From: an uncultured Gammaproteobacteria bacterium
GTDB taxonomy: Bacteria > Patescibacteriota > Patescibacteriia > CAZSQN01
NCBI GenBank assembly: GCA_964609095.1
Contig: CAZSQN010000001.1
Coordinates: 214,117-278,116 of the forward strand
DNA length: 64,000 nt
Reading direction: 5' to 3'
The notes under the pieces were generated by a model. It saw nothing but the letters and a program-made list of their open reading frames with translations. It made no database searches and was not told the origin of the DNA. Position numbers and translations under genes: made by a program. This document shows, in pieces, positions 3,686 through 59,772 of the stretch; within the stretch, counting starts at the first letter, position 1, and every line of letters begins with the position of its first letter.

Positions 3686-3693
3686 ATTAAATT

Positions 3694-5118
3694 ATGGCTG
3701 ACAAAATAAGATCGGAAAGAATAAGCGCTTTGCCTCAAGATATTTTTGATGAATTGTTTAGAGATGACGAATCAGAGTTAATCCAGGATCTGATTAAAGA
3801 ACATAAACTTAAAAAAGGAACCGAAGATATTATCGCGGAGCTTATCAGAGAGTTATTTATAAAAGATATCAGTTTAGAAGATTTTGCTCCAAAAATTGCT
3901 AAAAAAATTAGCATGTCAGACGAACTTGGAAGAAAGATCGCGGTAGATATTGCCAAGACGCGGCTTTTGCCGCACGAAGATTATTTTGCCGGCGTGGGAA
4001 GGCAAATCGTGATTTGGGGAGGAGAGCCGATTAAAGCGGAAAAGATTAAACCAACATCCTTGCCCGCGGATGCCCCCAAGGGCAGGGAAGCCAAGGGCGC
4101 GGCTCCGGTTGCCGCTCCGACGGCGGAGAGCGCGCCGGCGGCCGCAAAATCTTCATTTGAGCAAAGGGCGGAAGTTGAGGAAGAAGCGGAAATTTTAAAA
4201 AAGCAAAAAGAAACGGCGAAAATCACCCCCGTTACCCAATCAATTGAAGATAAATTGAATGAGAAAATAAAAGCGGTAGTCAGCGAGGCAAAGATTGTTT
4301 TTGCCAATCCCGCGTTAACCAAACGATTTGAAACCATAATTTCCGCGCGGCTTCGGGACGTGCGCGACGGGGCGGAAACAAAGGAAATGCTCTTGCGGGC
4401 GGATAAGGTTGGGGGTTTGGGATTGGGCGCGGCAGAAGCGGAGCGGGTTAGTCAGATTCTAAATCGCGTTTTTGCCGAATTTAGCGGTTTATATAGGAAA
4501 GAGGAAGAGGCAAAAAGGAAAGCGTTTTTAGCCGAACAAGCCGAGCGCGAGGCCTTGCGCAAAGCGGAACGGGAGAGGCGCGAGCGCGAGGAGCGGGAGA
4601 AGCTTTACGCCCGCGTTACCGGAGTCGCGCCCAGCATTACGAAGTTAGAAGTTAGAAGTTCGAAGGTGGAACAAGTGTCAGTCAGACCTCCAGCTTCCAG
4701 CTTCTCCCGACATAAAGTCGGGATCCCGACCGAAGTGTCGGGACAAATTCCAACTACCAAGCCGCGCATGGAGGAAGTCAAGTTTACGCCAAAGATAACT
4801 GGTCCGGTGGAAGAACTGGCGCAAATGACTTTAATTGAGTTTCGCCGTCTTTCTAAAGACGCGAAAGAGGCGGTCTTGAAGATTGGGGATAAAATTGACC
4901 TTTTGGAAGAAGAAGATTTTGGGAAAAAAGTCGCCGGCATTAAGGCCTGGCAGGGATCGGGGGTAAACAAGCTTTATCTTGATTTGCTTAAGGATGGCTT
5001 GAACAGGGGTGTCGGCATTTCCGCCATTATTGATGAAAAAGCAAAAGGAGGAGCGGAAACTCTAACCAAAGCCGAATTTGATGCTATAATGGAGTTGAAC
5101 AGAAATTTAAGATTCTAA
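3694..5118 (+). CDS. Hypothetical charged/coiled-coil protein with an internal heptamer-repeat insertion
   Basis: 474-aa ORF, KE-rich, ERERREREEREK stretch. Nucleotides 4641-4707 carry (AGAAGTT)x3 plus a CCAGCTT-type inverted arm translated in frame. Confidence 0.45.
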   Translation: MADKIRSERISALPQDIFDELFRDDESELIQDLIKEHKLKKGTEDIIAELIRELFIKDISLEDFAPKIAKKISMSDELGRKIAVDIAKTRLLPHEDYFAGVGRQIVIWGGEPIKAEKIKPTSLPADAPKGREAKGAAPVAAPTAESAPAAAKSSFEQRAEVEEEAEILKKQKETAKITPVTQSIEDKLNEKIKAVVSEAKIVFANPALTKRFETIISARLRDVRDGAETKEMLLRADKVGGLGLGAAEAERVSQILNRVFAEFSGLYRKEEEAKRKAFLAEQAEREALRKAERERREREEREKLYARVTGVAPSITKLEVRSSKVEQVSVRPPASSFSRHKVGIPTEVSGQIPTTKPRMEEVKFTPKITGPVEELAQMTLIEFRRLSKDAKEAVLKIGDKIDLLEEEDFGKKVAGIKAWQGSGVNKLYLDLLKDGLNRGVGISAIIDEKAKGGAETLTKAEFDAIMELNRNLRF

Positions 5119-5127
5119 CCTTAATGT

Positions 5128-5160: not shown

Positions 5161-5233
5161 AAGCGAGTGGCCGCGTAGCGTTATGAGGGCTACTGCAAGG
5201 AGCCCGAATATCAGCGAAGCGGGAAAAGGAGCT

Positions 5234-5671
5234 ATGCCTGAACAATTCGTCGTGCCGCAATTCCTTGATGTGGAAGATAAAATTTTGGGGCCGATAACGG
5301 CGCGCCAGTTTATTATTTTAATTGTCACTTTTTTGGTCGCGGCCATAATGTACCGCCTGCTTGCTTTCGGATATTTTATTTTTTTTGGAATACTGGTTAT
5401 TGCCGCCGGAGCCGTGATTGCTTTTGTGCGCATCAACGGCCAGCCGTTTCATTATTTTCTGCTTAATTTGGTGCAGACCTTGCGCCGGCCGCCGCTCCGC
5501 GTTTGGAACAAGCAGCTATTCGCGGCAGAATTAAAAGAATTGATGAACATCGCGCCGGCGCCGCCGCCTCCGCCAAAACCGGTAAAAGAAAAATTGGCCG
5601 CCAGCCGCATTAACGAATTGACTTTAATACTTAACACCGGCGGAGCGTATAATCCGGAACAATACAAATAA
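5234..5671 (+). CDS. PrgI-family (VirB3-like) small membrane protein of a type IV secretion/conjugation-like system
   Basis: N-terminal motif VPQFLDVEDKILGPITARQF followed by two TM helices. Strong RBS aaaaggag 5 nt before the ATG at 5234; the ORF track begins earlier at 5183. The motif matches my recollection of PrgI-family proteins. Confidence 0.55.
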   Translation: MPEQFVVPQFLDVEDKILGPITARQFIILIVTFLVAAIMYRLLAFGYFIFFGILVIAAGAVIAFVRINGQPFHYFLLNLVQTLRRPPLRVWNKQLFAAELKELMNIAPAPPPPPKPVKEKLAASRINELTLILNTGGAYNPEQYK

Positions 5672-5675
5672 AAGA

Positions 5676-5750
5676 GGGTACAGGGGACAGGGTAGAGGGT
5701 ATAGTAAATTAAAAAACTAAACCCTAAACCCTAAACCCTAAACCCTAAAA
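5676..5750 (+). repeat. Heptamer-repeat leader element, CCCTAAA class (copy A): GGGTACAGGGGACAGGGTAGAGGGTATAG + spacer + (CCCTAAA)x4, ending ...AAAAATGTG
   Basis: Near-identical copy at 6451-6525; related copies at 39576-39643, 28572-28624 (minus) and 33101-33181 (minus), all abutting start codons. Confidence 0.8.
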
Positions 5751-5761
5751 ATGTGCCTGAG

Positions 5762-6445: not shown

Positions 6446-6450
6446 AACCA

Positions 6451-6525
6451 GGTTATAGGGGACAGGGTAGAGGGTATAGTAAATTAAAAAACTAAACCCT
6501 AAACCCTAAACCCTAAACCCTAAAA
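6451..6525 (+). repeat. Heptamer-repeat leader element, CCCTAAA class (copy B), directly upstream of virB4-like
   Basis: GGTTATAGGGGACAGGGTAGAGGGTATAGTAAATTAAAAAACTAAACCCTAAACCCTAAACCCTAAACCCTAAAAATGTG; the in-frame start of the following gene is the GTG overlapping the terminal ATG. Confidence 0.8.
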
Positions 6526-6527
6526 AT

Positions 6528-8438
6528 GTGGCATTTAGACCGCTCCAAATTTTCAAGAAAAAACAGCCGGGGATAGTGGCTCCTGTTTTGGGCGAGGAGG
6601 CGCGCAAGGCGGAAGAAGCCAAAGCCAAATTGGAAAAGATCGCGCTTGAAGAAGAGCGCGTATATCGCCGCGGCGTTGTTTCTATCCGCGATATTATCGC
6701 TCCGGCCTCTCTTAAAGTTGACCCGTCAATGGTAGTTTTAGGCGACAATTATGTCCGCACTCTTTTTGTGCTTACTTATCCGAGATACATTTCCGTGGGC
6801 TGGTTTGCCCCGATATTGAATCTTTCCATGACGCTTGATGTGGGAATGTTTTTTTATCCCGTGCCGGCGGATATTATTTTGAAACAGTTAAAAAATAAAG
6901 TCGGCACATTGGAGGCGCAAATTATTTCTGATTCAGAAAAAGGCGCGCCGCGCGATCCGCTTCGCGAAACCGCGCTCCGCGATGTTGAAAGTTTGCGCGA
7001 TTCCTTAACCCAGGGCACCGAGCACTTCTTCCAATACGCGCTTTATGTGACTCTTTACGCCAAGAGCGCTGAAGAGCTGAACAAGCGCACGGAAGAGATA
7101 GAAACGCTCTTCGGCTCAAAACTTATCTACACTAAACGGACGTACTACCAATCAGAACAGGGTTTTAATTCTACCATTCCTCTTGGCAATGACGAGCTGA
7201 TGATAACCTTTAACATGAATTCATCTCCGATCGCCTCGTCGTTTCCTTTTATGTCGGCGGACCTTACTTCCGACGGGGGAGTGCTTTACGGCATCAATCG
7301 GCATAATAATTCTTTAATTTTATTTGACCGGTTTTCTCTGCAGAACGCCAATATGGTGGTGTTTGCCACTTCCGGCGCGGGCAAAAGCTACGCGGTCAAG
7401 CTGGAAGTTTTGCGGTCATTGATGATGGGAACAGATGTTATTATTATTGACCCGGAGATGGAGTACAAACATCTTTCCGACGCGGTAGGCGGCACTTATA
7501 TTTCCATTTCTTTGGCTTCGGAGAGCAAAATCAATCCTTTTGAACTGCCGCGGCCCGTGGGAGAGCAGATTAGCACGGAAGACATAATCAGAAGCGCGGT
7601 TATCACGGCCAAAGGCCTGCTGCGCATAATGTTTGGCGCCATCACCCCGGAAGAGGATTCCCTTGTAGACCGCGCCTTGCTTGAAACCTATGCCAAAAAA
7701 GACATTACGGCCGCATCTGATTTGACCAAAGTTGAACCGCCGATAATGCAGGATTTCGCGGAAGTGCTTGAAGGAATGGAGGGCACGGCCAATCTTGTTT
7801 TGAAAATTAAAAAATATACCGAAGGAACTTTTGCCGGCTTGTTTAACTCTCCCACCACGGTTGACCTTAAAAATCCTTTCGTTGTGTTTTCCGTGCGCGA
7901 TCTTGAGGATGAACTGCGGCCTATGGCCATTTACGCCATTGTCAATTTTATCTGGAATGTGGTTAGGAGCGAACGGAAAAAGAGAATCCTCGTTATTGAC
8001 GAGGCCTGGTGGCTGATGCAAAACGATGATTCCGCCAAGTTTATTTTCGCGCTGGTCAAGCGCTGCAGAAAATACTATTTGGGCATAACTACCATTACGC
8101 AGGATGTAAACGACTTTTTGCGTTCTCCATACGGCCAGGCCATAGTCACCAATTCTTCAATTCAGATGCTGTTAAAGCAATCGCCCGCGTCAATTGATTT
8201 GGTGCAAAAAACGTTTCTTTTGACCGAAGGGGAAAAGTATCTGCTCTTGGAGAGCGCGGTTGGCGAGGGCATATTTTTTGCCGGACCGCGGCACGCGGCC
8301 ATAAAGGTTGTGGCTTCTTACACCGAAGACCAGCTTATCACCACGGACCCGCGGCAATTATTGGAAATTGAACAAGCAAAGAAAGAATTTGAGGCGCAGT
8401 TAAAGGGCGGCGAACCGGAAGCGCCGGACATTGGATAG
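6528..8438 (+). CDS. virB4: VirB4/TraC-family type IV secretion ATPase
   Basis: Walker A (FATSGAGKSY) and Walker B (ILVIDEAWWLM) motifs, ~636 aa, typical VirB4 N-terminal region; GTG start overlapping the ATG of the upstream element. Confidence 0.8.
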   Translation: MAFRPLQIFKKKQPGIVAPVLGEEARKAEEAKAKLEKIALEEERVYRRGVVSIRDIIAPASLKVDPSMVVLGDNYVRTLFVLTYPRYISVGWFAPILNLSMTLDVGMFFYPVPADIILKQLKNKVGTLEAQIISDSEKGAPRDPLRETALRDVESLRDSLTQGTEHFFQYALYVTLYAKSAEELNKRTEEIETLFGSKLIYTKRTYYQSEQGFNSTIPLGNDELMITFNMNSSPIASSFPFMSADLTSDGGVLYGINRHNNSLILFDRFSLQNANMVVFATSGAGKSYAVKLEVLRSLMMGTDVIIIDPEMEYKHLSDAVGGTYISISLASESKINPFELPRPVGEQISTEDIIRSAVITAKGLLRIMFGAITPEEDSLVDRALLETYAKKDITAASDLTKVEPPIMQDFAEVLEGMEGTANLVLKIKKYTEGTFAGLFNSPTTVDLKNPFVVFSVRDLEDELRPMAIYAIVNFIWNVVRSERKKRILVIDEAWWLMQNDDSAKFIFALVKRCRKYYLGITTITQDVNDFLRSPYGQAIVTNSSIQMLLKQSPASIDLVQKTFLLTEGEKYLLLESAVGEGIFFAGPRHAAIKVVASYTEDQLITTDPRQLLEIEQAKKEFEAQLKGGEPEAPDIG

Positions 8439-8515
8439 AATCTGGAATATGGAATCTGGAATTTAGAAAAGAAAATTCTAAATTCTAAATTCTAAATTCT
8501 AAATTCAGTTCTACC
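8439..8515 (+). repeat. Heptamer-repeat leader element, ATTCTAA class: imperfect (GGAATNT)n arm + aagaaa + (ATTCTAA)x4, ending 8 nt before the ATG at 8516
   Basis: Arms are imperfect reverse complements; same architecture as the CCCTAAA class; related copy at 42981-43059. Confidence 0.75.
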
Positions 8516-25187: not shown

Positions 25188-26546
25188 TTATTTCAATATC
25201 TCCAGAGCTTCAGTGACGGAGTTGATTTGGATTAAGGATTCGGACGATTCAAGTTTCGCGGCTTTGGGCACGAGCGCGTATTTGAATCCGAGTTTTTGCG
25301 CTTCGCGCACCCGGCGTTCAATTTCTTTTACCGGACGGATTTCGCCGGAGAGGCCGACCTCGCCTATAGCAGTCATATCTTTGGGAAAGGGTCTGCCTAT
25401 ATAAGCGGAAGCGATTGAAGCAAGAATGCCGAGATCGGCGGCTGGCTCGCGTATTTTAAGTCCGCCGCCAACATTCACATGCACGTCGGTATGGTCTAAA
25501 TACAAGCCGGCGCGACGGGAAAGCACGGCTAAAATCAAGTCCAATTTTTTGGGGTCAATTCCGGAGGCGCGCCTTTGCGGATATCCCCAAGATGTCTTGT
25601 GAGTTAAGGCCTGGATTTCCGCCAAAAGCGGCCGTGTGCCCTCAAGGAGCACGGTAATCACAGAGCCGGGAATGGCTGTTTTTCTTTCTTGTATAAAAAG
25701 AGCCGAGGGATTGGGCACTTCCATAAATCCGTTTTCAGTATGATTAAAAATGCCGACTTCGTCTGTCGCGCCAAACCTGTTTTTGCTTGCGCGGAGCACT
25801 CTGAAGGAATGTTGAGAATCGCCTTCAAGAGTAAGTACGACATCAACCAAGTGTTCCAGCGATTTTGGTCCGGCAACCAGCCCGTCTTTTCTGACTTGAC
25901 CCACCAGAATTATCGGAAGATTATTTTGTTTTGCGGTTTCGGTTAAAATGCTTACGGCCGCGCGAATTTCTCTCGGCGAGCCGCTTTTGCCGCCCTCTGC
26001 CCGTAAGGTGTTTACGGAATCAATGATAGAAAGCGCCGGGCGTTCTTTGGCAATGGTGGCGGCGATAGAGGCGGCGTCGGTTTCATTAAGAAAAAGCACG
26101 GAGGAGCCGATGGCGTTAATTCTCGCGAATCTGGAATAAATTTGTTCGGCTGATTCTTCGCCGGAAGTATAGAGCACCGGCCCTGATTTTTTGGCAATCG
26201 TTCCGCACACTTGCGCGAGAAGCGTGGATTTGCCTATGCCCGGTTCTCCGGAGAGGAGTATCACGCTTCCGGCCGCGATTCCTCCGTCCAACACGCGGTC
26301 AAATTCGTTAATGCCGGTTTTTATGCGCGGGGATTTGGGTAAGGATATCTCTTGGAGGGATATTGGTTTTAAGGCAGGGACTGTTGAATTTGGAATTTGG
26401 AATTTGGAATTTGATATTTTAGATTCCATATTCAAGATTCTAGATTCTGATAAAGATCCCCATTCGCCGCATTCAAAACAACGCCCAGCCCACTTTGGGG
26501 TCTGCGCGTCGCATTTGGAACAGACATAAACAATGCTCGATTTCAT
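25188..26546 (-). CDS. radA: DNA repair protein RadA/Sms, carrying an in-frame heptamer-repeat insertion in the zinc-finger/ATPase linker
   Basis: C4 zinc ribbon CSKCDAQ...CFECGEW, Walker A GEPGIGKSTLL, Lon-like C-terminus. Residues ESRILNMESKISNSKFQIPNS are encoded by the repeat at 26386-26452. Confidence 0.85.
   Translation of the reverse strand: MKSSIVYVCSKCDAQTPKWAGRCFECGEWGSLSESRILNMESKISNSKFQIPNSTVPALKPISLQEISLPKSPRIKTGINEFDRVLDGGIAAGSVILLSGEPGIGKSTLLAQVCGTIAKKSGPVLYTSGEESAEQIYSRFARINAIGSSVLFLNETDAASIAATIAKERPALSIIDSVNTLRAEGGKSGSPREIRAAVSILTETAKQNNLPIILVGQVRKDGLVAGPKSLEHLVDVVLTLEGDSQHSFRVLRASKNRFGATDEVGIFNHTENGFMEVPNPSALFIQERKTAIPGSVITVLLEGTRPLLAEIQALTHKTSWGYPQRRASGIDPKKLDLILAVLSRRAGLYLDHTDVHVNVGGGLKIREPAADLGILASIASAYIGRPFPKDMTAIGEVGLSGEIRPVKEIERRVREAQKLGFKYALVPKAAKLESSESLIQINSVTEALEILK
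26386..26452. repeat. Heptamer-repeat hairpin element (GAATTTG/AGATTCT arms) inside the radA coding sequence
   Basis: gaatttggaatttggaatttggaatttgatattttagattccatattcaagattctagattctg; same architecture as the intergenic leader elements; translated in frame. Confidence 0.7.
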
Positions 26547-28571: not shown

Positions 28572-28624
28572 AGGGTTTAAGGTTTAGGGTTTAGGGTCTT
28601 TTATACCCTGTACCCTGACCCATC
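28572..28624 (-). repeat. Heptamer-repeat leader element, CCCTAAA class (copy D, minus orientation), between the TolB-like stop and the dsbA-like start
   Basis: Minus strand reads GGGTCAGGGTACAGGGTATAAAAGACCCTAAACCCTAAACCTTAAACCCT-ATG. Confidence 0.75.
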
Positions 28625-28630
28625 TATCCT

Positions 28631-33100: not shown

Positions 33101-33181
33101 TGTTTTGAGGGTATAGGGTTTAGCGTTTAGGGTTTAGGGAAATTCACTAAACGCTATACGCTAACCGCTAAACGCTTTGGT
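33101..33181 (-). repeat. Heptamer-repeat leader element (copy E; GCGTTTA-type arm + CCCTAAA-type arm), filling the entire htpX-stop to clpC-start spacer
   Basis: Minus strand: TAA-ACCAAAGCGTTTAGCGGTTAGCGTATAGCGTTTAGTGAATTTCCCTAAACCCTAAACGCTAAACCCTATACCCTCAAAACA-ATG. Confidence 0.75.
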
Positions 33182-34057: not shown

Positions 34058-34109
34058 AGTTATAAAATCCTCAATTCCGAAGTCCGAATACCGAAAAAAT
34101 AACTAATAC

Positions 34110-34300
34110 CCAATAAATGTCTAATGTCTAATTGCTCTAATTTCTAATCAATGACTAAATCCTAATTTGCAATTCTCAATTTAACAATTTTCATTGAATT
34201 TACAATTTTCCAATTGACATTTATGATTGAATCATTGAGAATTTATTGAAAATTAGAAATTAGAAATTGATAATTGGAGTTTGTTTAGAAATTAGGAATT
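34110..34300. repeat. ~190-bp imperfect palindrome built from AATTAGA/TCTAATT and CAATT heptamer/pentamer units between htpX and lemA
   Basis: Left arm ctaatgtctaattgctctaatttctaat...; right arm ...aattagaaattagaaattgataatt; symmetric about ~34200. Confidence 0.65.
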
Positions 34301-34337
34301 AGAAATTTCTTCGTGATTCTGGTTTCGGGATTGGTTA

Positions 34338-34907: not shown

Positions 34908-35045
34908 AATGTTGGTTTGAGGGTTGAGTATTGAGGTTTGAGGGCTTTATATAGTCCTAAAATCTCATACCTCATTTCTCAAATCTTTTAGAGAATAATC
35001 TTAAACTTATTATATTCCTGTGTCAAGAGATTGTAAATTAAAAAA

Positions 35046-36778: not shown

Positions 36779-36789
36779 CTCGCTTCGTT

Positions 36790-38230: not shown

Positions 38231-39583
38231 ATGAAATTCCCTGTTTCCATATTTAAGGCCTACGACATAAGAGGCGAGTCGCCGGGCGAGATTACTTCAG
38301 AATTTGCCGAGCGGTTAGGCCGGGCGTTTCCTCATTTTACGGACGCCAAAACGGTTGTGGTTGGCCGCGACGCGCGCAAGACATCGCCGGAATTGGCAGA
38401 CGCGCTTATAAAAGGAATAATCTCGCAGGGCGTGGATGTGATTGATATTGGTATGGTTTCCACTCCCATGTTTTATTTTGCGGTCGGTGAATACGAGCTA
38501 CATGATGCCGGCATTATGGTGACGGCCTCGCATAATCCGGCAAAGTACAACGGGTTCAAGCTGGTGCGCGGTGACGCTTTTCCCATAGGCGCCAATTCCG
38601 GAATGTATGAGTTGCGGGATTTGGTCACCTCCGACGCCGAATTTCCGAACCAAAAAATCGGGAATGTTGTGGAGACGGATATTTCCGAAGCGTATTTGGA
38701 AAAGATTTTTTCTTTGGTTGATCCGGAGACATTAAAACAATTTAATTTGGCAATTGATAACGGCAACGGCATGGGCGGCGTTATCCTGCCGCGCTTGCTT
38801 AAAGCCATACCCGGATGGAACTCAGTTTTGTATATGGAGCCGGACGGCAATTTTCCAAACCACGAGGCCAATCCTTTGAAAGAAGAAACCCTTGACGATC
38901 TAAAAAAATTGATAAAAGAAAAAAAATCCGATCTGGGCGCGGCTTTTGACGGAGACGCTGACAGAATAGGATTTGTTGACGAGAACGGAGCAATCGTGTC
39001 TGGAGATTTGATTACCGGCATACTGGCGGCGCGAATTTTGGAAGAGCATCCCGGCAGTCCCGTCCTCTACGATGTTCGTTCCAGCTGGGCGACCAAAGAA
39101 GCGATTCTCGTGGCTGGCGGAAAGCCAATAATGTGTCCAGTGGGACACGCGCTGGTTAAAAAGATGCTCCGCGATACCGGCGCGGCCTTTGGCGGAGAAG
39201 TATCCATGCATTATTACTTCCGTGATTTTTACAATGGAATGGAGTCGTCTGACCTCGCGTTTTTGATTTTGCTTTCCATTTTAACTGATGCGGGCAAAAC
39301 GCTTTCCGAACTTGTCGCGCCGCATCGGAAATATTTCCATTCCGGGGAAATAAATTTTAAAGTGGAAGACAAAGAAGGAAAGTTTAAGGAGATTGAGGAA
39401 AAATATAAAAGCGGCGCCAAAGAGATTATCCGCATTGACGGAATACGAATGGAATTTAACGATTGGTGGCTTAATTTGCGCGCGTCCAATACCGAACCGC
39501 TGATGCGGCTCAATTTGGAGGCAAAATCAGAAAGCAAGATGCGTGAAATGAAAGAGGAAATAAGCAATTTATTAAGGGTATAG
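38231..39583 (+). CDS. Phosphoglucomutase/phosphomannomutase family protein
   Basis: Active-site TASHNP(A) (phosphoserine loop), Mg-binding DGDADR, ~450 aa. Confidence 0.75.
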   Translation: MKFPVSIFKAYDIRGESPGEITSEFAERLGRAFPHFTDAKTVVVGRDARKTSPELADALIKGIISQGVDVIDIGMVSTPMFYFAVGEYELHDAGIMVTASHNPAKYNGFKLVRGDAFPIGANSGMYELRDLVTSDAEFPNQKIGNVVETDISEAYLEKIFSLVDPETLKQFNLAIDNGNGMGGVILPRLLKAIPGWNSVLYMEPDGNFPNHEANPLKEETLDDLKKLIKEKKSDLGAAFDGDADRIGFVDENGAIVSGDLITGILAARILEEHPGSPVLYDVRSSWATKEAILVAGGKPIMCPVGHALVKKMLRDTGAAFGGEVSMHYYFRDFYNGMESSDLAFLILLSILTDAGKTLSELVAPHRKYFHSGEINFKVEDKEGKFKEIEEKYKSGAKEIIRIDGIRMEFNDWWLNLRASNTEPLMRLNLEAKSESKMREMKEEISNLLRV

Positions 39584-39643
39584 GGGATAGGGTAGAGGGT
39601 ATAGAAACTACTAAACCCTAAACCCTAAACCCTAAACCCTAAA
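39576..39643 (+). repeat. Heptamer-repeat leader element, CCCTAAA class (copy C), overlapping the PGM stop codon and ending at the murI ATG
   Basis: GGGTATAGGGGATAGGGTAGAGGGTATAGAAACTACTAAACCCTAAACCCTAAACCCTAAATTG-ATG. Confidence 0.8.
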
Positions 39644-40429: not shown

Positions 40430-41520
40430 GCATTGTTACTATTTTAATTTTTCTTGCCGTTTTGTCTCTTTTGGTTTTTGTCCATGAGTTTGGCCATTTT
40501 ATCACTGCCAAACGCGCCGGCGTCAAAGTGGAAGAGTTTGGATTCGGGTTTCCTCCGTGCGCTTTTGGCATTAAAAAAGGAGGCACGGTTTATTCCATAA
40601 ATTGGCTGCCGCTGGGAGGTTTTGTGAAAATCAAGGGCGAGAGCGGGCAGGATTGGGAAGATAAAGACAGTTTTTCCAATAAAAAAATTTGGAAAAGAAT
40701 GTTGATTGTCGGAGCGGGCGTTTTAATGAATGTTTTTCTTACCGCCGTTCTTCTTGCTATCGGCGCCGGAGCGGGTATGCCGCGAGTGGTGCCGGAAGAG
40801 GACAGGTTTGCGCGGGTTAAAGACGATTCCATTGAAGTGGTCTCGGTGCTTTCCAACTCTCCGGCCGAGAAGGCGGGTATAATGGAGGGCGATGCGGTGG
40901 CGGCCATTGACGGCGTTTCTTTTGGAAAAATTGAGGAAGCGCGCGCTTATATCGCTTCAAAGGAAGAGGTTCAGATTAAAATCAAGCGCGAGGAGCTGGA
41001 ACTTGTTAAGTCCATTAAAACGGAAGAACTGAAAGAGGCGGGAAGGCGGGGGATCGGAGTCGCGCTTTTGCATACCGGCATTGTAAGCTATCCTTGGTAC
41101 ATAGCCCCGCTTAAAGGCATTGAAGAAACGGGGATTTATATCAGAGAAATATCTTTTGCCTTTGGACGGATAATCGGAGATATGTTTGTCGGACGGCCGG
41201 TTTCCGTGGATTTGCAGGGGCCGGTGGGCATAGCCGTGCTTACCGGTAGGGTGGCCCGTCTCGGTTTTGTTTATCTTCTGCAGTTTACCGCGCTTCTTTC
41301 CATCAATCTGGCTTTTATAAATATATTTCCGTTTCCGGCGCTTGACGGGGGCAGAATATTATTTTTGGCCATTGAGGGAATCAGGAAGAAGCCGGTGCCT
41401 AAAAAAGTGGAAGCAATGATCCATAACATAGGATTTATTTTGCTTATAACTCTCGTGATTATTGTGACTTTTAGAGACATATTGAGATATGGAGGCGGAT
41501 TTTTGGACAGATTTAATTAA
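40426..41520 (+). CDS. rseP: RseP-like site-2 protease (M50 zinc metalloprotease with PDZ domain)
   Basis: HEFGHF (HExxH), central PDZ-like region, C-terminal LDGG motif, 4 TM helices. Confidence 0.75.
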   Translation: MSIVTILIFLAVLSLLVFVHEFGHFITAKRAGVKVEEFGFGFPPCAFGIKKGGTVYSINWLPLGGFVKIKGESGQDWEDKDSFSNKKIWKRMLIVGAGVLMNVFLTAVLLAIGAGAGMPRVVPEEDRFARVKDDSIEVVSVLSNSPAEKAGIMEGDAVAAIDGVSFGKIEEARAYIASKEEVQIKIKREELELVKSIKTEELKEAGRRGIGVALLHTGIVSYPWYIAPLKGIEETGIYIREISFAFGRIIGDMFVGRPVSVDLQGPVGIAVLTGRVARLGFVYLLQFTALLSINLAFINIFPFPALDGGRILFLAIEGIRKKPVPKKVEAMIHNIGFILLITLVIIVTFRDILRYGGGFLDRFN

Positions 41521-41583
41521 TTTCAAATTTATGATTTCAAATTTCAGAATTTTGAAATCAACAATCTGAAATCTGAAATTAAA
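41521..41583 (+). repeat. Heptamer-repeat leader element, CTGAAAT/TTTCAAA class, spanning the rseP stop to the pheS ATG
   Basis: tttcaaatttatgatttcaaatttcagaattttgaaatcaacaatctgaaatctgaaattaaa-ATG; arms are imperfect complements. Confidence 0.75.
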
Positions 41584-42979: not shown

Positions 42980-42980
42980 A

Positions 42981-43059
42981 TGAATTTGGAATCTGGAATC
43001 TTGAATTTTGATTTAATTAAATTCTAGATTCTAATTTCTAAATTCTAGATTCTTGAAAG
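42981..43059 (+). repeat. Heptamer-repeat leader element, ATTCTAA/GGAATNT class, upstream of pheT
   Basis: gaatttggaatctggaatcttgaattttgatttaattaaattctagattctaatttctaaattctagattcttgaaag-ATG. Confidence 0.75.
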
Positions 43060-45501
43060 ATGAATATCAACATTTCTTACAACTGGCTTAAAGAGTATCT
43101 TTCGACGAAAAAATCGCCGGCAGATTTGGCGCGCCTGCTCTCTCTTTCCGGCCCATCGGTTGAGAGAATCCATCATTTTGGGAGCGAATGGGATAAAATC
43201 GTGGTTGGCAAGGTTTTGGAGATTAAACCGCATCCCAACGCGGATAAATTAAGAATTGCGATTACTGATATTGGCAGTAGAAAAATGGAGATTGTCTGCG
43301 GCGGAACAAATCTTCAAAAAGAAATGAAGGTGGCGGTGGCGCTCTCCGGCGCTCGCGTGCGCTGGCACGGAGAAGGGGAATTGATTGAGCTTAAGCCAAC
43401 GGAAATCCGCGGCGTAAAGTCCGAGGCCATGATCGCGGCCGCCAATGAAATAGGATTATTTGAGCTTTTTCCGCACAAAGAAAGGGAAGTGATGGATTTA
43501 AGCGGACTAAAGGCAAAACCCGGCGCGGCCCTGACTCTTGCTTTGGGTCTTGAAGATTATGTTTATGACACGGAAGTGACCACCAACAGGCCGGACCTTT
43601 TGGGGATAATCGGCTTTGCCCGCGAGGCCAGCGCCATCACGCGCGAGAAATTTGACGAGAAAAAGATTTTGTCTTTGGAAAAATATCCCAAGCCGGGTTT
43701 AAAAGACGCGATTGCGGTTAAGGTCTTGGATAAGAGACATTGTCCGCGCTACACGGCCGCGGTTGTGCGTGGCGTAAAAGTTGGTCCGTCTCCTTTGTGG
43801 ATGAGGATTCGTCTTGCCCGCGCCGGCATAAGACCGATTTCAAATATCGTTGACATTACAAATTATGTGATGCTGGAGATGGGAGAGCCAATGCACGCGT
43901 TTGATTTAAAAAAGCTTAACGGCGGCATTGTTGCGCGCAAAGCCCGCGCCGGAGAAAAGATTAAAGTTTTAAATGGGGCCGATTATAAGCTTTCCGATGA
44001 AACATTAGTTATTGCCGACGCGGAAAAACCCATTGCCATTGCCGGCATTATGGGCGGAGCGGAAACCGGAGTCAGCGGTGAAACAACCGACATTGTTTTG
44101 GAAGCGGCGACTTTTGATCCTGTGAGTATCAGGAGGAGTTCGCGTTTATTAAATCTCCGAAGCGAGTCGTCATTGCGGTTTGAAAAGGGTCTCTCAACCG
44201 ACTTGCCGCACCGCGCGTTGGCTAGAGCTCTTCAGCTTGTGCTGGAGATTGCCGGCGGAACTTGTGGGCCGATGTCTGACATTCGTTCCGCGGTTTATAA
44301 ACCGTTCAAATTTTCCATAGGCGTGGAAGAAGCGCAAAGGTTAATCGGCGCTCCCATTGCCGTCGGAGAGATGAAACGGATTTTGACCTCATTGGGCTTT
44401 AAGCTACAAGCTACAAGCTACCCCGCACCAGAACAAGTTCGGTACGGGGCAGGCAAGCTACAAGCTCGTGTGCCCTATTTCCGCGACCACGATATTGAAT
44501 CTGGACGGGATTTGGCAGAGGAAGTGGCGCGCGTTTACGGCTATCATAAACTTCCGTCAGTTCTGCCTGAAGGCAAAATCCCGTTGCGCGAGCGCCCCGA
44601 TGAACTTATTTGGGAGGACAAAATTAAAGAAGCGCTGGCCGGAGCGGGAGGAACAGAAATAATCACTTATTCTTTCACCTCGGCGGGCGCGATGAGAAAA
44701 GTTGATTTTGATGAAAAAAGCGCAACGCGCATTGCCAATCCTCTGACTTCTGATTTTGAATATATGCGGACTAGTTTAATCCCGTCGGCCCTGGAAGTTG
44801 TGTCAAAAAATCAGGAAAATTTTCCAACGGTGAAACTTTTTGAAATCGCCAATACTTATCATCCGCGGAAAAATGATTTGCCGGAAGAGTCGCCAAATCT
44901 TCTTGTGGCCGTTTCCGCAAAGAAAAATGAGCCCTCGCCTTACTACACGGTAAAAGGAATACTGGAATTGGTTTCTTGCAGGTTGGGGTTAGATTTTGAT
45001 TTTGAAAATAAATGTCTCCAAGCCGAACTTTGGCATCGGGGAAGGAGCGTTTGTGTTAGAAATAACGGGAAGATTGTCGGCGCCATGGGCGAACTGCATC
45101 CAAAAGTTCTTGCCAATTTTGGCATAGAACATCGGCTGGCCGCGCTTGAACTTCATCTTGGCGAGCTCTATGGGGCAATGAGAGAGATTGGCGCATATAT
45201 TCCGGTTCCGGAGTTTCCGGCCGCAAAAAGGGACGTTTCTTTCATTATTTCCGAGCGTACGCCGTATGAAGAGGTTGTAAAAATAATGAAGGCGGCGGAT
45301 AAACTGATTGTTGGCGCGGAGCTTTTTGATATTTTCACTGGCCCCTCAACTGCGCTCGGGGCGGGCAAAAAGAGCATGGCGTTTCATATAACCTATCAAT
45401 CAAAAGAACGGACGCTTTCTTCGGAAGAGGTGGAAGCGGCGCACAAAAGATTGGCTGATATGCTTAAATTGAAGATTAGAGCGGAAGTGAGAAAGGGTTA
45501 A
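43060..45501 (+). CDS. pheT: Phenylalanine--tRNA ligase beta subunit, with an in-frame palindromic repeat insertion in the B5-like region
   Basis: tRNA-binding N-terminus, B3/4, B5 and anticodon-binding C-terminus recognisable. The conserved LGF...VPYFR...DLAEEVARVYGY block is interrupted by ATSYPAPEQVRYGAGKLQ, encoded by the element at 44401-44468. Confidence 0.85.
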   Translation: MNINISYNWLKEYLSTKKSPADLARLLSLSGPSVERIHHFGSEWDKIVVGKVLEIKPHPNADKLRIAITDIGSRKMEIVCGGTNLQKEMKVAVALSGARVRWHGEGELIELKPTEIRGVKSEAMIAAANEIGLFELFPHKEREVMDLSGLKAKPGAALTLALGLEDYVYDTEVTTNRPDLLGIIGFAREASAITREKFDEKKILSLEKYPKPGLKDAIAVKVLDKRHCPRYTAAVVRGVKVGPSPLWMRIRLARAGIRPISNIVDITNYVMLEMGEPMHAFDLKKLNGGIVARKARAGEKIKVLNGADYKLSDETLVIADAEKPIAIAGIMGGAETGVSGETTDIVLEAATFDPVSIRRSSRLLNLRSESSLRFEKGLSTDLPHRALARALQLVLEIAGGTCGPMSDIRSAVYKPFKFSIGVEEAQRLIGAPIAVGEMKRILTSLGFKLQATSYPAPEQVRYGAGKLQARVPYFRDHDIESGRDLAEEVARVYGYHKLPSVLPEGKIPLRERPDELIWEDKIKEALAGAGGTEIITYSFTSAGAMRKVDFDEKSATRIANPLTSDFEYMRTSLIPSALEVVSKNQENFPTVKLFEIANTYHPRKNDLPEESPNLLVAVSAKKNEPSPYYTVKGILELVSCRLGLDFDFENKCLQAELWHRGRSVCVRNNGKIVGAMGELHPKVLANFGIEHRLAALELHLGELYGAMREIGAYIPVPEFPAAKRDVSFIISERTPYEEVVKIMKAADKLIVGAELFDIFTGPSTALGAGKKSMAFHITYQSKERTLSSEEVEAAHKRLADMLKLKIRAEVRKG
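44401..44468. repeat. Palindromic heptamer-repeat element inside pheT: (AAGCTAC)x2-3, a ccccg...cgggg hairpin, then (CAAGCTA)x2
   Basis: aagctacaagctacaagctaccccgcaccagaacaagttcggtacggggcaggcaagctacaagct; duplicated KLQA codons flank it. Confidence 0.7.
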
Positions 45502-51099: not shown

Positions 51100-51183
51100 A
51101 GCTTGTAGCTTTTAGCTGTTAGCTTTTAGTTGTTTTGGTTTATTTCTATCAGTTAAAAGCTAAAAGCTAAAAGCTTTTTTATT
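51100..51183 (+). repeat. Heptamer-repeat leader element, AAAAGCT class, upstream of thrS
   Basis: gagcttgtagcttttagctgttagcttttag...ttaaaagctaaaagctaaaagctttttt-att-ATG; arms are complementary. Confidence 0.75.
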
Positions 51184-58830: not shown

Positions 58831-59772
58831 ATGAGGAAATTACCAAAGATTATCGTTATAGCCGGGCCGACCGCAACGGGTAAGACCGATTTGGGTATTA
58901 AGATTGCCAAAAAATTTAATGGAGAAGTAATTAGCGCTGACTCAAGACAGATTTATCGTGGAATGGATATAGGGACGGGCAAACCTAAAATTTCAGATTT
59001 CAGATTTCAGATTTCAGAAGTTGATGGCATAAAACATCACTTGATAAGTATCGTGGATCCGGATGAAGAATTTACCGTTGCGCTTTGGAAACAAGAAGCA
59101 ATCGCGGCGATTAAAAATATCTTAACGCGCAATAAATTGCCGATAATTGTCGGCGGTACGGGACTTTATATTAAATCATTGGTGGAAAATTTGGATATTC
59201 CTCAAGTGCCGCCGGATTTTGCTTTGCGCAAGAAGCTGGAATTAAGAATTAAGAAGCAAGGATTGAAAGTTTTATATAAAGAACTTTTGAAATTAGATCC
59301 GGGAGCAAAAGGCGTTGTTGACCAGCGTAATTCCCGGCGAGTCATCAGGGCGCTGGAGGTCTGCCTTATAACGGGCAAGCCGTTTAGTTCGCTTCAAAAA
59401 CAAGGTGAGCCGATGTTTGAAGTTTTAGAGCTGGGAATAGACGTCCCGAGAGAAAAACTTTATAAGCGCATAGATAGACGCGTTTTGGAAATGTACAAGG
59501 AAGGGTTGCTTAAAGAAACAAAAAAATTTTTGAAAAGATATTCGCCGCATATTCCCGCAATGAGCGGGATTGGCTATAAGGAAGCAGGGGAGCATTTGGC
59601 CGGTAAAATCAGTTTGGAAGAAGCAATTGTTAAAACGCAGCTTCGTACCCATGCTTATGCCCGCCGCCAGCTTATCTGGTTTAGGAAGGATAAGAAGATC
59701 AAATGGATAAAGACTCAAGAACAGGCGGAAAAGCTGGTTGAGATTTGCCTTTTAGCTCTAAATGTGTTATAG
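58831..59772 (+). CDS. miaA: tRNA dimethylallyltransferase, carrying an in-frame (ATTTCAG)x4 heptamer insertion
   Basis: P-loop IVIAGPTATGKT, conserved QIYRGMDIGT. The block between GT(G/A)KP and HHLI is lengthened by ISDFRFQISE, encoded by 58989-59018. Confidence 0.85.
   Translation: MRKLPKIIVIAGPTATGKTDLGIKIAKKFNGEVISADSRQIYRGMDIGTGKPKISDFRFQISEVDGIKHHLISIVDPDEEFTVALWKQEAIAAIKNILTRNKLPIIVGGTGLYIKSLVENLDIPQVPPDFALRKKLELRIKKQGLKVLYKELLKLDPGAKGVVDQRNSRRVIRALEVCLITGKPFSSLQKQGEPMFEVLELGIDVPREKLYKRIDRRVLEMYKEGLLKETKKFLKRYSPHIPAMSGIGYKEAGEHLAGKISLEEAIVKTQLRTHAYARRQLIWFRKDKKIKWIKTQEQAEKLVEICLLALNVL
58989..59018. repeat. (TTTCAGA)x4 heptamer tandem repeat inside miaA
   Basis: aatttcagatttcagatttcagatttcaga; same heptamer class as the pheS leader element. 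Confidence 0.8.

What the first reader, a model, noticed from the sequence alone, without database searches (positions are those of the whole stretch)
8439..8515. Further heptamer classes with the same two-arm architecture in front of start codons
At 8439-8515 the element carries (ATTCTAA)x4 and sits before the gene after virB4. At 42981-43059 the same class sits before pheT. At 41521-41583 a (CTGAAAT) class sits before pheS. At 51100-51183 an (AAAAGCT)x3 class sits before thrS. Each consists of an imperfect purine-rich repeat arm, a spacer, a perfect about four-unit heptamer array, and then the ATG within 3-10 nt. The unit sequences differ while the design is the same. That points to a common generating or selection mechanism, such as a structure-based regulatory leader or a templated repeat-generating activity, rather than one mobile sequence. 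Three of the four are in front of aminoacyl-tRNA synthetase genes.
Basis: seen in the sequence. Interest (0 to 1): 0.6.

Follow-up and report, generated by a model that had tools for sequence, protein, structure and literature searches.

The report
Heptamer-repeat hairpins filling stop-to-start gaps
In this uncultured groundwater bacterium (Candidatus Uhrbacteria), many gaps between neighbouring genes consist almost entirely of a hairpin whose two arms are runs of 7-base repeats; the four reported cases are ordinary members of this population and not special controls of tRNA-synthetase genes.

Summary
All four sites hold two partly complementary heptamer arrays that fill the gap from the upstream stop codon to the next start codon. 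Three of the four fold far better than shuffled sequence.

The four sites are not special. The window holds at least 12 such intergenic elements, and similar arrays lie in frame inside four genes. Period 7 dominates all tandem repeats: 24 arrays, against 0-5 for any other period. Other genomes fetched here carry about 13 times fewer per base.

Syntenic relatives (76-82% PheS identity) have hairpins in the same gaps, built from unrelated units. The AGGGTAN/CCCTAAA class recurs in many metagenomes, 22 times in gene-sense orientation against 1-2 antisense.

The genome almost lacks Shine-Dalgarno sites. The arm next to the start codon is always G-poor and usually a perfect repeat. There is no T-box or other Rfam match, and no usual terminator form.

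My best reading has two parts. The elements are slippage-generated, partly copied repeat hairpins. Their G-poor arm serves as the leader of the downstream gene, and it is masked by the upstream arm until the upstream ribosome opens the stem. That coupling function is inferred, not shown. A purely selfish or neutral origin is a strong rival.

This is a new variant of known heptameric repeats (Xanthomonas/Nostoc GGGNATC, Beggiatoa TAACTGA).

The parts
8438..8469 (+). Site 1, stop-proximal (5') arm: GAATCTG GAATATG GAATCTG GAATTTA GAA. It starts in the TAG stop codon of the VirB4-like gene (8436-8438).
   Evidence: TRF period 7, 3.6 copies, 88%. It pairs with 8473-8506 in the minimum-energy fold, with one mismatch per unit.
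8473..8506 (+). Site 1, start-proximal (3') arm: (AAATTCT) x4.9, perfect, no G. The ATG is at 8516.
   Evidence: TRF 100% match. G fraction 0.00. No Shine-Dalgarno motif.
42980..43059 (+). Site 2, between the EamA-like gene and pheT. 5' arm 42982-43011 (GAATTTG GAATCTG GAATCTT GAATTTT). 3' arm 43018-43053 (TAAATTC/TAGATTC x5.1, 82%). ATG at 43060.
   Evidence: Fold -23.7 kcal/mol, z -4.2.
41519..41583 (+). Site 3, between the M50 peptidase gene and pheS. 5' arm 41519-41552 (ATTTCAA-type, 74%), which begins inside the last codons of the upstream gene. 3' arm 41563-41579 (AATCTGA x2.4). ATG at 41584. This is the weakest of the four.
   Evidence: z -2.7. The gap is absent (3-4 nt) in relatives L083, L086 and L087.
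51100..51183 (+). Site 4, before thrS. 5' arm 51100-51129 (AGCTTGT AGCTTTT AGCTGTT AGCTTTT). 3' arm 51154-51175 (TAAAAGC x3.1, perfect). T run 51176-51183. ATG at 51184.
   Evidence: Fold -31.9 kcal/mol, z -5.7. Identical in an independent assembly (L002).
5672..5752 (+). Main-class element: AGGGTAC AGGGGAC AGGGTAG AGGGTAT / (CTAAACC) x4.7, then AAAAAT GTG. It lies between the PrgI-like gene and the next gene.
   Evidence: z -5.4. 74 nt identical to 6446-6527 with unrelated flanks.
6446..6527 (+). Second copy of the same element, immediately upstream of the VirB4-like gene.
   Evidence: A similar class-1 element precedes a VirB4 homologue (57% identity) in L124.
39575..39643 (+). Main-class element between the phosphoglucomutase (PGM) gene and the Asp/Glu racemase gene. 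The first unit and the TAG stop codon (AGGGTATAG) belong to the upstream gene.
   Evidence: z -5.8. Orthologous gaps in L083, L084, L086 and L087 hold hairpins with other units.
28572..28630 (-). Main-class element on the minus strand. In gene sense it reads AGGATAG ATGGGTC AGGGTAC AGGGTAT aaaag ACCCTAA ACCCTAA ACCTTAA ACCCT, followed directly by ATG.
   Evidence: Its orientation flips with the gene strand.
33101..33181 (-). CGTTTAG/CCCTAAA-type element between the M48 peptidase gene and clpB, with both arms imperfect.
   Evidence: z -6.1. The same unit class occurs in L086 at two other gaps.
34058..34337 (-). 280-nt composite, nested hairpin built from several heptamer classes (AATTCCG, AATGTCT, AAATTAG and others).
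   Evidence: Fold -65 kcal/mol.
34908..34995 (-). GATTTGA/CCTCAAA-type element upstream of the LemA gene.
   Evidence: z -3.5.
26386..26448 (-). Two-arm heptamer element in frame inside radA, in the linker between the zinc ribbon and the ATPase. In sense it reads GAATCTA GAATCTT GAATATG GAATCTA / (AAATTCC) x4.
   Evidence: Protein alignment A1 shows that the linker is variable and that relative P0122 has a related ESRISN repeat.
4641..4704 (+). Two-arm heptamer element (GAAGTTA x3.6 / TCCAGCT x2.3) read through in frame inside ORF 3694-5118.
58990..59018 (+). Solitary perfect (ATTTCAG) x4.1 array in frame inside miaA. It has the same unit as the complement of the pheS leader array.
44401..44466 (+). 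(AAGCTAC) x3 ... AAGCTAC AAGCTCG direct repeats around a small GC hairpin, in frame inside pheT.

Best explanation
**What it is.** The four sites belong to a lineage-wide population of intercistronic 'repeat-armed hairpins' in this Candidatus Uhrbacteria (CPR/Patescibacteria) genome.
- Each element fills the whole gap between a stop codon and the next start codon on the same strand.
- The arm next to the start codon is a G-poor heptamer array and is usually perfect.
- The arm next to the stop codon is an imperfect, G-richer array of roughly the complementary heptamer.
- The two arms form a long stem with about one mismatch per unit.

**Origin (inferred from patterns).** The arrays grow and turn over by slippage of 7-base units, which is a known bias of bacterial simple repeats. 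They are sometimes copied between loci. They survive only where they are tolerated, namely in stop-to-start gaps and in protein linkers.

**Function (inferred, not shown).** This organism starts translation almost without Shine-Dalgarno sites.
1. The G-poor array acts as the unstructured leader of the downstream gene.
2. In the mRNA this leader is masked by the upstream arm.
3. The stem also brings the stop codon and the start codon next to each other.
4. A ribosome finishing the upstream gene sits on the base of the stem, melts it, and frees the leader.
5. Translation of the downstream gene is thereby coupled to that of the upstream gene. The folded stem may also protect the transcript.

The elements are not specific to aminoacyl-tRNA synthetase genes.
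For: **Shown.**
- Period-7 excess and intergenic concentration: 24 period-7 arrays against 0-5 for other periods, and about 21 of 29 TRF rows in the 7% of the window that is intergenic.
- Arm complementarity beyond shuffles in the window and in 10 of 11 spacers of relatives.
- Stems start within or a few bases after the stop codon and end 0-14 bases before the start codon.
- All elements lie between same-strand genes.
- Orientation follows the gene strand.
  - The upstream arm is richer in G in 10 of 11 elements.
  - The downstream arm is perfect in 8 of 12 elements, and the reverse is never seen.
  - Class-1 hits in metagenomes have same-sense ORFs on both sides 22 times, against 1-2 antisense.
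  - Other start-adjacent arrays all have a G fraction of 0.16 or less in sense.
- Only 1 strong Shine-Dalgarno motif precedes 52 start codons. G is 6% in the 20 bases before element-preceded starts, 16% before other starts, and 25% in the window overall.
- The hairpin is kept at the PGM-to-racemase gap in 5 of 5 genomes with unrelated units.
- A class-1 element precedes virB4 both here and in a contig whose VirB4 is only 57% identical.
- Copying between loci: 74 identical bases with unrelated flanks.

**Literature parallels.**
- Heptameric repeat excess has been attributed to polymerase slippage. [quoted passage not shown]
- TAACTGA arrays end about 1 nt before start codons that lack ribosome-binding sites (PMC4679880).
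Against: - No expression, structure-probing or translation data exist for this uncultured organism, so the coupling function is inference from geometry.
- Wobble pairs do not clearly favour the sense RNA. There are 42 G-U pairs against 29 A-C mismatches, which would be G-U on the other strand. The antisense strand folds better for 7 of the 11 clearest elements (10 intergenic plus the radA element).
- Similar two-arm arrays sit in frame inside radA and ORF 3694-5118, where a leader role is impossible.
- Some arrays are solitary, or have no complementary partner (L163, L110, miaA).
- Presence varies between relatives: the M50-to-pheS gap has an element in 2 of 5 genomes.
- In a genome this compact, nearly any tolerated insertion would end up exactly between a stop and a start codon.
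- Why one arm stays perfect and the other does not is not explained.
Confidence: 0.45

Rival explanations
1. The elements are selfish or neutral by-products with no function. Heptamer slippage, inverted duplication and copying between loci create palindromic repeat elements, comparable to REP sequences, miniature transposable elements or Rickettsia palindromic elements. Purifying selection then leaves them only in stop-to-start gaps and protein linkers. Their orientation is fixed only because a G-rich arm next to a start codon would harm Shine-Dalgarno-independent initiation.
For: - In-frame copies lie inside radA, ORF 3694-5118, miaA and pheT.
- Presence or absence differs between relatives, and the load differs strongly between genomes: the window is rich and L087 is poor.
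- Identical copies occur with unrelated flanks.
- The same unit families recur at unlinked loci.
- There is no sense-strand wobble preference.
- G-poor leaders are general in this genome.
Against: - A hairpin is kept at the same gap in 5 of 5 genomes despite complete turnover of the unit sequence.
- The same class precedes virB4 across 57% protein identity.
- There is a regular single mismatch per unit, and the perfect arm is consistently on the start side.
- No transposase, terminal inverted repeat with target duplication, or RAYT-type partner was seen in the window.
Confidence: 0.3
2. The elements are RNA processing or stability elements. The long, mismatch-punctuated stems would be RNase III-type cleavage sites or barriers to exonucleases, and would divide polycistronic transcripts into units with different stabilities, as intercistronic REP hairpins do in E. 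coli.
For: - They lie within same-strand gene runs.
- The stems are stable, -15 to -38 kcal/mol.
- In L089 a tRNA gene lies between complementary heptamer arrays, resembling a processing stem.
- They lack the T run of terminators, whereas ordinary GC-rich terminators with T runs exist elsewhere in the window.
Against: - This does not explain why the G-poor, perfect arm always faces the start codon.
- It does not explain why solitary arrays sit next to start codons.
- One mismatch every 7 base pairs is not what a good RNase III substrate looks like (my own knowledge).
- No transcript data are available.
Confidence: 0.1
3. The elements are regulatory leaders or attenuators specific to aminoacyl-tRNA synthetase genes (T-box-like or terminator-based).
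For: - All three synthetase genes in the window (pheS, pheT, thrS) have an element.
- The thrS element, and the unrelated hairpin before thrS in L083, are both followed by a T run.
Against: - There is no T-box or any other Rfam match; only three tRNAs were found.
- The elements are 63-84 nt long, far shorter than a T-box.
- At least 8 other elements precede unrelated genes.
- pheS has no upstream gap in 3 of 4 relatives.
- The terminator scan calls none of the four sites.
Confidence: 0.03
4. A templated, reverse-transcriptase-based activity writes the upstream arm as an error-prone copy of the downstream arm, for example the diversity-generating retroelement (DGR) reverse transcriptase encoded in the window.
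For: - A DGR (reverse transcriptase, Avd, template and variable repeats) lies at 35.8-38.2 kb.
- Stem mismatches lie opposite downstream-arm adenines in 63 of 122 cases. All 8 mismatches in element 5672 do so.
Against: - Once G-U wobbles are counted as variation, the rates per base even out (A 26%, U 21%, C 15%, G 29%).
- Changes also occur opposite C, as in AGCG and AGCC units.
- The fetched regions of relatives L084, L086 and L087 carry no reverse transcriptase (only 11-20 kb of each was seen), yet they have the hairpins.
- The DGR has its own clean template/variable pair, with 21 of 24 differences at template adenines.
Confidence: 0.03

Closest known systems
Heptameric simple sequence repeats of Xanthomonas (GGGAATC) and Nostoc/Anabaena (GGGGAYT; cyanobacterial STRR repeats)
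   Same: - Tandem 7-base units are strongly over-represented and are mostly intergenic.
- A typical array has about 4 units.
[quoted passage not shown]
- Some occur as inverted pairs.
- They sit at the same intergenic positions in related species while length and sequence turn over.
- Downstream genes are functionally unrelated (PMC4692102).
   Different: - Here many unrelated unit classes coexist in one genome, and most cannot form G-quadruplexes.
- The inverted two-arm arrangement is the rule and not the exception.
- The element fills the whole stop-to-start gap.
- The host is a CPR bacterium.
TAACTGA direct repeats of Beggiatoaceae, cyanobacteria and Bacteroidetes (MacGregor 2015, PMC4679880)
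   Same: - They are perfect tandem heptamers in 'forward' orientation.
- They end a few bases before start codons that lack a ribosome-binding site.
- Some overlap the end of the upstream ORF or lie inside ORFs.
- Downstream genes show no functional pattern.
- A role in translation has been proposed.
   Different: - There is one fixed unit, TAACTGA, against many units here.
- They are almost always direct repeats without a complementary arm (1 inverted case in 170 sets).
- No hairpin model was proposed.
REP/BIME and REPIN elements of proteobacteria
   Same: - They are short palindromic elements dispersed in intergenic regions, often inside operons.
- They form mRNA hairpins that can stabilise upstream transcripts.
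- Copies spread within a genome (PMC3116915; PMC3333891 and PMC3733652, listed).
   Different: - REPs are 20-40 bp, GC-rich, and carry a GTAG or CGTC tag.
- REPs depend on a RAYT transposase.
- REPs are not built from tandem repeats.
- No tag and no RAYT gene was seen here.
Rickettsia palindromic elements (from my own knowledge: Ogata et al. 2000)
   Same: They are palindromic repeats in a reduced genome and are found both between genes and in frame inside protein-coding genes.
   Different: They are 100-150 bp elements with a conserved sequence and are not tandem heptamer arrays. The resemblance was not tested here.
Translational coupling by intercistronic hairpins (general bacterial mechanism; PMC4538824, listed)
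   Same: The geometry matches. A stem sequesters the initiation region of the downstream cistron, and its base is within reach of a ribosome terminating on the upstream cistron.
   Different: This is a functional analogy only. Known cases use unique sequences with Shine-Dalgarno sites, not repeat arrays. Nothing was measured here.

Membership tests
T-box riboswitch / known structured RNA leaders (Rfam) | A match to a curated covariance model at its gathering score | tested here: not met
   cmscan of the whole window found only three tRNAs.
Intrinsic (Rho-independent) terminator | A GC-rich stem with a short loop, followed directly by a T run | tested here: not met
   - The consensus scan called none of the four sites.
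- Only 51100-51183 is followed by a T run.
- Ordinary terminators of that form exist elsewhere, for example 52987-53031.
Heptameric simple sequence repeats (Mrazek 2007, as cited in PMC4692102) | Tandem 7-nt units over-represented relative to other periods and concentrated in non-coding DNA | tested here: met
   - There are 24 period-7 arrays against 0-5 for each other period.
- The density is 13 times that of the other genomes fetched.
- About 21 of 29 TRF rows lie in the 7% of the window that is intergenic.
Heptameric simple sequence repeats (Xanthomonas/Nostoc type) | G-quadruplex-capable unit (four G3 or longer tracts) | tested here: not met
   Only the AGGGTAN class has four G3 tracts. 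The four reported sites (GAATCTG, ATTTCAA and AGCTTTT arms) have none.
TAACTGA-type start-codon-proximal repeats | Forward-oriented tandem heptamers ending a few bases before a start codon that lacks a Shine-Dalgarno site | tested here: met
   - The arrays end 4-9 nt before the ATG at the four sites.
- They end -1 to 9 nt before the start in most metagenome hits.
- No Shine-Dalgarno motifs are present.
TAACTGA-type start-codon-proximal repeats | The unit sequence is TAACTGA | tested here: not met
   The units are AAATTCT, TAAATTC, AATCTGA, TAAAAGC, CTAAACC and others.
REP/REPIN | A GTAG or CGTC tag at one end, a 20-40 bp GC-rich palindrome, and an associated RAYT (Y1 transposase) gene | tested here: not met
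   - The arms are AT-rich tandem arrays without the tag.
- No Y1 transposase domain appears among the Pfam annotations available for 20.6-63 kb or among the ten proteins scanned from 1-15.5 kb, 35.8-36.3 kb and 49.9-51.1 kb. Genes between about 15.5 and 20.6 kb were not scanned.
- The rest of the genome was not seen.
Miniature inverted-repeat transposable element | Terminal inverted repeats with target-site duplications, and identical copies at many loci | tested here: inconclusive
   - One pair of identical copies has sharp borders.
- No target duplication is visible at the junctions compared with empty sites in relatives.
- Only 64 kb of the genome was available.
Integron attC site | R''/L''-L'/R' boxes (RYYYAAC ... 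GTTRRRY) flanking promoterless mobile cassettes | tested here: not met
   - By inspection, no such core sites are present in the sequences.
- The flanking genes are housekeeping genes in conserved synteny.
Diversity-generating retroelement (DGR) target | Differences confined to positions of template adenines | tested here: inconclusive
   - 63 of 122 stem mismatches lie opposite downstream-arm A.
- The bias disappears once wobble pairs are counted.
- Units such as AGCG and AGCC differ at non-A positions.

The most novel reading that the evidence does not exclude
A large clade of CPR/Patescibacteria that largely lacks Shine-Dalgarno sites may use a sequence-independent intercistronic module to pass ribosomes from one gene to the next. 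The module would be a G-poor tandem-heptamer leader paired to an imperfect anti-leader that starts at the upstream stop codon. Passage could work by melting of the stem base, or by hairpin-bridged termination and re-initiation. The module would be continually rebuilt by 7-base slippage, so that its structure is conserved while its sequence is not.
Probability: 0.15. Interest if true: 0.8.

Novelty: new variant of a known kind. Interest (0 to 1): 0.55.

Why it matters
- **Biology of an unstudied group.** CPR/Patescibacteria make up a large share of bacterial diversity. They are uncultured, and their gene-expression signals are essentially unstudied.
- **If the hairpins are functional.** They would show how operons are translated without Shine-Dalgarno sites. 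They would also give heptameric repeats, a long-noted but unexplained bacterial oddity, a testable role.
- **If they are selfish.** They would still be a fast-evolving repeat class that:
  - reshapes stop-to-start junctions;
  - adds residues to protein tails and linkers (PGM tails, the RadA linker);
  - supplies stop and possibly start codons;
  - misleads gene callers, since one public annotation starts RadA inside the element;
  - can confuse metagenome assembly;
  - could serve as strain markers.

Tried and rejected
- **T-box or other known RNA families.** The Rfam scan found only tRNAs.
- **Terminators.** The consensus scan called none of the four sites.
- **Diversity-generating retroelement (DGR) / reverse-transcriptase templating.**
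  - The adenine bias of mismatches looked striking in the AGGGTAN class (8 of 8).
  - It is not general. A hand count over five classes gave 19 of 31, and the per-base rates even out once G-U wobbles are counted.
  - The fetched regions of the relatives carry no DGR but still have hairpins.
- **G-quadruplex.** It is possible only for the AGGGTAN class.
- **Sense-strand RNA selection by wobble asymmetry.** The result was not significant: 42 against 29, and antisense folds are often stronger.
- **Replication-strand explanation of orientation.** Rejected, because minus-strand genes carry flipped elements while GC skew stays positive across the window.
- **Integron attC sites.** Rejected, because the core boxes are absent and the genes are syntenic housekeeping genes.
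- **'T is avoided at unit position 6' in the AGGGTAT arm.** I do not rely on this, because my search pattern forced an AGGGTATA unit and so biased the sample.
- **Metagenome contigs that join the same element to different flanks (L091/L107, L112/L128/L160).** These might mean recombination at the elements, but they may equally be assembly chimeras, so they were not used.
- **Dead ends.**
  - The thrS genome scan returned only distant relatives (57% identity or less) without arrays.
  - Elhai 2008 (cyanobacterial small dispersed repeats) is not held in the library.
  - The look-up for ORF 9193-13017 found no record.
Full report
**Source of the window**

The thrS protein of the window is encoded on contig JACOZF010000007.1 (200,570 bp) of assembly GCA_016181485.1. 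The source names its PheS as Candidatus Uhrbacteria. The window is about 47% G+C, is densely packed with genes in same-strand runs, and has positive GC skew throughout.

**Check of the observation**

| Site | Stop-side (5') arm | Start-side (3') arm | Array to ATG | Fold z-score | Shuffles folding as well (of 200) |
|---|---|---|---|---|---|
| 8439-8515 | GAATCTG GAATATG GAATCTG GAATTTA | (AAATTCT) x4.9, perfect | 9 nt | -5.6 | 0 |
| 42980-43059 | GAATCTG family | TAAATTC x5.1, 82% | 6 nt | -4.2 | 0 |
| 41521-41583 | ATTTCAA type | AATCTGA x2.4 | 4 nt | -2.7 | 3 |
| 51100-51183 | AGCTTGT AGCTTTT AGCTGTT AGCTTTT | (TAAAAGC) x3.1, then TTTTTTATT | 8 nt | -5.7 | 0 |

- The gene upstream of 8439 is a VirB4/TraG-type ATPase.
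- Three descriptors do not hold in general.
  - Only one of the four downstream arrays is 'perfect, about four units'.
  - The upstream arm is purine-rich only at 8439, and marginally at 42980.
  - The rule that does hold is that the upstream arm has more G than the downstream arm.

**The four sites are a small sample of a larger population**

- Reading every gap between called genes shows the same architecture at further sites:
  - 5672-5752, 6446-6527 and 39575-39643;
  - 28572-30, 33101-81 and 34908-95, all on the minus strand;
  - a 280-nt nested composite at 34058-34337;
  - a weak case at 46276-46325.
- The commonest class is AGGGTAN on the stop side and (CTAAACC) x4.7 on the start side.
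- Perfect arrays of at least three copies number 8 for period 7, 1 for period 6, and 0 for every other period from 4 to 12.
- With TRF the window has 24 period-7 arrays (37.5 per 100 kb), against 2.8 per 100 kb elsewhere.
- About 21 of 29 period-7 TRF rows lie in the 7% of the window that is intergenic.
- The three synthetase genes are therefore three of at least a dozen downstream genes. The others include T4SS components, a thioredoxin-like protein, clpB, LemA and a racemase.

**Known RNA elements are excluded**

- Rfam finds only three tRNAs in the window, with no T-box or other leader.
- The terminator scan calls none of the four sites.
- Ordinary GC-rich hairpins with T runs exist at other gene ends, for example 52987-53031.

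**Anatomy in the sense of the genes**

- The stems begin inside the upstream stop codon, or within a few bases after it. At 39575 the first unit and the TAG stop (AGGGTATAG) are the end of the phosphoglucomutase (PGM) gene.
- The stems end 0-14 bases before the start codon.
- The stems carry about one mismatch per repeat unit. The mismatch falls at the same unit position but involves different bases.
- Orientation follows the gene.
  - On minus-strand genes the elements are flipped (28572, and 26386 in radA), although GC skew does not change sign.
  - In sense orientation the start-side arm is a perfect array in 8 of 12 elements, and the reverse is never seen.
  - The stop-side arm has the higher G content in 10 of 11 elements.
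- The genome is nearly devoid of Shine-Dalgarno motifs.
  - Only one strong motif precedes 52 start codons.
  - G makes up 16% of the 20 bases before ordinary starts, 6% before element-preceded starts, and 25% of the window overall.

**Relatives**

PheS homologues of 76-82% identity led to four syntenic contigs: L083, L084, L086 and L087.

| Gap | Window | L083 | L084 | L086 | L087 |
|---|---|---|---|---|---|
| PGM to racemase | AGGGTAN/CTAAACC | GCAAAAN/TTTTACG | period-9 TCTAATTG/AATTAGAAT | CGTTTAG/CTAAACG | GAATYAG/ATTCMTA |
| M50 peptidase to pheS | element | genes 3-4 nt apart | different element | genes 3-4 nt apart | genes 3-4 nt apart |

- In L087 the stop-side arm of the PGM-to-racemase hairpin is translated as a C-terminal tail of PGM.
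- Ten of eleven such spacers fold as single, mismatch-punctuated hairpins with z of -2.3 or lower.
- More distant Uhrbacteria and Patescibacteria loci (thrS 55-57% identical) show no excess of arrays.

**The main class elsewhere**

- A two-arm pattern for the AGGGTATA...CCCTAAACCCTAAACC class hit 118 metagenome stretches. Some are evidently eukaryotic telomere-like DNA.
- About 35 hits are bacterial contexts with the same design.
  - The start-side array has 2.3-7.7 perfect copies.
  - A start codon lies -1 to 9 bases after the array.
  - An ORF ends at or inside the stop-side arm.
  - Same-sense ORFs flank the element on both sides in 22 cases, against 1-2 antisense.
- These contigs are only distantly related to the window, with 40-57% protein identity.
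- They carry further heptamer arrays of many other units (90 period-7 arrays against 12 or fewer for any other period). Part of this excess comes from how the contigs were selected.
- Start-adjacent arrays of other classes are all G-poor in sense.
- L124 has a class-1 element in front of a VirB4 homologue, as the window does at 6446-6527.

**Evidence for a mutational or copying origin**

- The elements at 5672 and 6446 are identical over 74 nt. The identical stretch includes the loop, the AAAAAT tail and the GTG start codon, and the flanks are unrelated.
- The same unit families recur at unlinked loci:
  - the GAAT family at 8439, 42980, radA and L087;
  - the AGCT family at 51100, 46276, pheT and L084;
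  - ATTTCAG at the pheS leader and inside miaA.
- Arrays also lie in frame inside genes:
  - a full two-arm element in the RadA linker between the zinc ribbon and the ATPase;
  - another in ORF 3694-5118;
  - a solitary array in miaA;
  - direct repeats in pheT.
- The RadA linker is variable among homologues, and the closest one carries a related ESRISN repeat.
- The literature attributes the bacterial excess of heptameric repeats to polymerase slippage (PMC4692102).

**Interpretation**

Identity is well supported. These are heptamer-repeat hairpins, a lineage-wide repeat class that is not specific to synthetase genes.

For function I commit to a leader/anti-leader hairpin that gives translational coupling.
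- The G-poor array is the Shine-Dalgarno-independent initiation region.
- The stop-side arm masks it.
- The geometry places the base of the stem under a terminating ribosome.

This model explains four things: the restriction to same-strand gaps, the tight fit between the stop and start codons, the orientation, and the retention of a hairpin at orthologous gaps despite sequence turnover. It rests on inference only.

Several results weigh against it.
- G-U pairs (42) do not significantly outnumber A-C mismatches (29).
- The antisense strand often folds better.
- Two-arm elements also occur inside genes.
- Some arrays are solitary.
- Presence varies among relatives.

The selfish or neutral alternative explains those points. 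In that case orientation would follow simply from the need for a G-poor leader. A processing or stability role is a further possibility, and the tRNA gene lying between complementary arrays in L089 points that way.

**The reverse-transcriptase idea**

- The window does encode a diversity-generating retroelement (DGR).
  - The reverse transcriptase is at 37202-38224 and bAvd is at 36815-37222.
  - The template repeat is at 36650-36784 and the variable repeat at 36169-36303.
  - 21 of 24 differences between the repeats fall at template adenines.
- Stem mismatches are enriched opposite start-side adenines (63 of 122).
- That enrichment vanishes when wobble pairs are counted as variation.
- The regions fetched from relatives carry no DGR but have the hairpins.
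- I reject a link between the DGR and the hairpins.

**Comparison with known systems**

- The closest known systems are:
  - the heptameric repeats of Xanthomonas and Nostoc, which share period, intergenic bias, strand rule, occasional inverted pairs and turnover at conserved positions;
  - the TAACTGA arrays of Beggiatoaceae, which are forward-oriented and end next to start codons that lack ribosome-binding sites.
- The present elements differ in four ways.
  - Many unit classes coexist in one genome.
  - The complementary second arm is the norm.
  - The element spans the whole stop-to-start gap.
  - The host is a CPR bacterium.
- Two full-text searches found no description of such elements in CPR genomes. 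This is absence from the held library, not proof of novelty.
- I class the finding as a new variant of a known kind.

Noticed in passing
window 35800-38230: A complete diversity-generating retroelement (DGR). The reverse transcriptase (RVT_1) is at 37202-38224 (+) and bAvd is at 36815-37222 (-). The template repeat is at 36650-36784 and the variable repeat at 36169-36303, at the 3' end of ORF 35813-36301. 21 of 24 differences fall at template adenines.
   Followed up: yes
window 37147-37173: A (GT)13.5 dinucleotide repeat lies 29 nt upstream of the DGR reverse-transcriptase start codon and inside the 5' end of the called Avd ORF. It could be a length-variable switch for the retroelement.
   Followed up: no
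window 45640-45975; also L083 9097-9539 and 13213-13295, L084 4178-4303 and 11078-11367, L086 12653-12783 and 19045-19217: A different repeat type. A small GIY-YIG ORF (45686-45949, 87 aa) is bracketed by inverted repeats CCAGGTAGTGAAAGTTTGAC / GTCAAACTTCTACTACCTGG. Similar inverted-repeat-bounded inserts (CCCCGTTAGAAGCC...GGCTTCTAACGGGG and CCCCGTGCTACAACTTTGA...) occupy other gaps in relatives.
   Followed up: partly
window 26386-26448 (radA), 4641-4704, 58990-59018 (miaA), 44401-44466 (pheT): Heptamer arrays, two of them full two-arm hairpins, are read through in frame inside protein-coding genes. One public annotation of the same RadA (P0121, 415 aa, without the zinc ribbon) starts at the ATG inside the element.
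   Followed up: partly
L089 1040-1290: A tRNA gene lies between complementary heptamer arrays (ACAAACT x4 upstream, TAGTTNG x4 downstream). A second G-poor array (TAACTAC) and an ATG follow. The downstream G-rich array could pair with either neighbour.
   Followed up: no
window 39575-39583; L087 8030-8065; L086 7361-7369: The stop codon TAG, and sometimes several C-terminal residues of the upstream protein, are supplied by repeat units of the stop-side arm. In L087 the PGM tail ...ENQELGIRN is encoded by GAATCAG GAATTAG GAATCAG GAATTAG. Because 7 is not a multiple of 3, arrays whose unit contains a stop codon place stops in all three frames.
   Followed up: partly
window 1142-8438 and 26606-27916: A type IV secretion or competence-like gene set: a TrbL/VirB6-like gene (weak match), a PrgI-like gene, a VirB4/TraG-type ATPase, and a T4SS pilin-domain protein elsewhere in the window. 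Three of the gaps in this cluster carry heptamer hairpins.
   Followed up: partly
L091/L107 and L112/L128/L160 (metagenome contigs): Elements with the same loop (GTGCCAGCGA) join one downstream gene to different upstream genes, and the reverse. This means either recombination at the elements or assembly chimeras at a repeat.
   Followed up: no
window 5624-5653 and 6353-6382: Two promoter-like matches with the same hexamers (TTAATA, 18 nt, TATAAT) lie in the 3' ends of the genes just upstream of the two identical AGGGTAN/CTAAACC elements. The surrounding sequences are otherwise unrelated.
   Followed up: no
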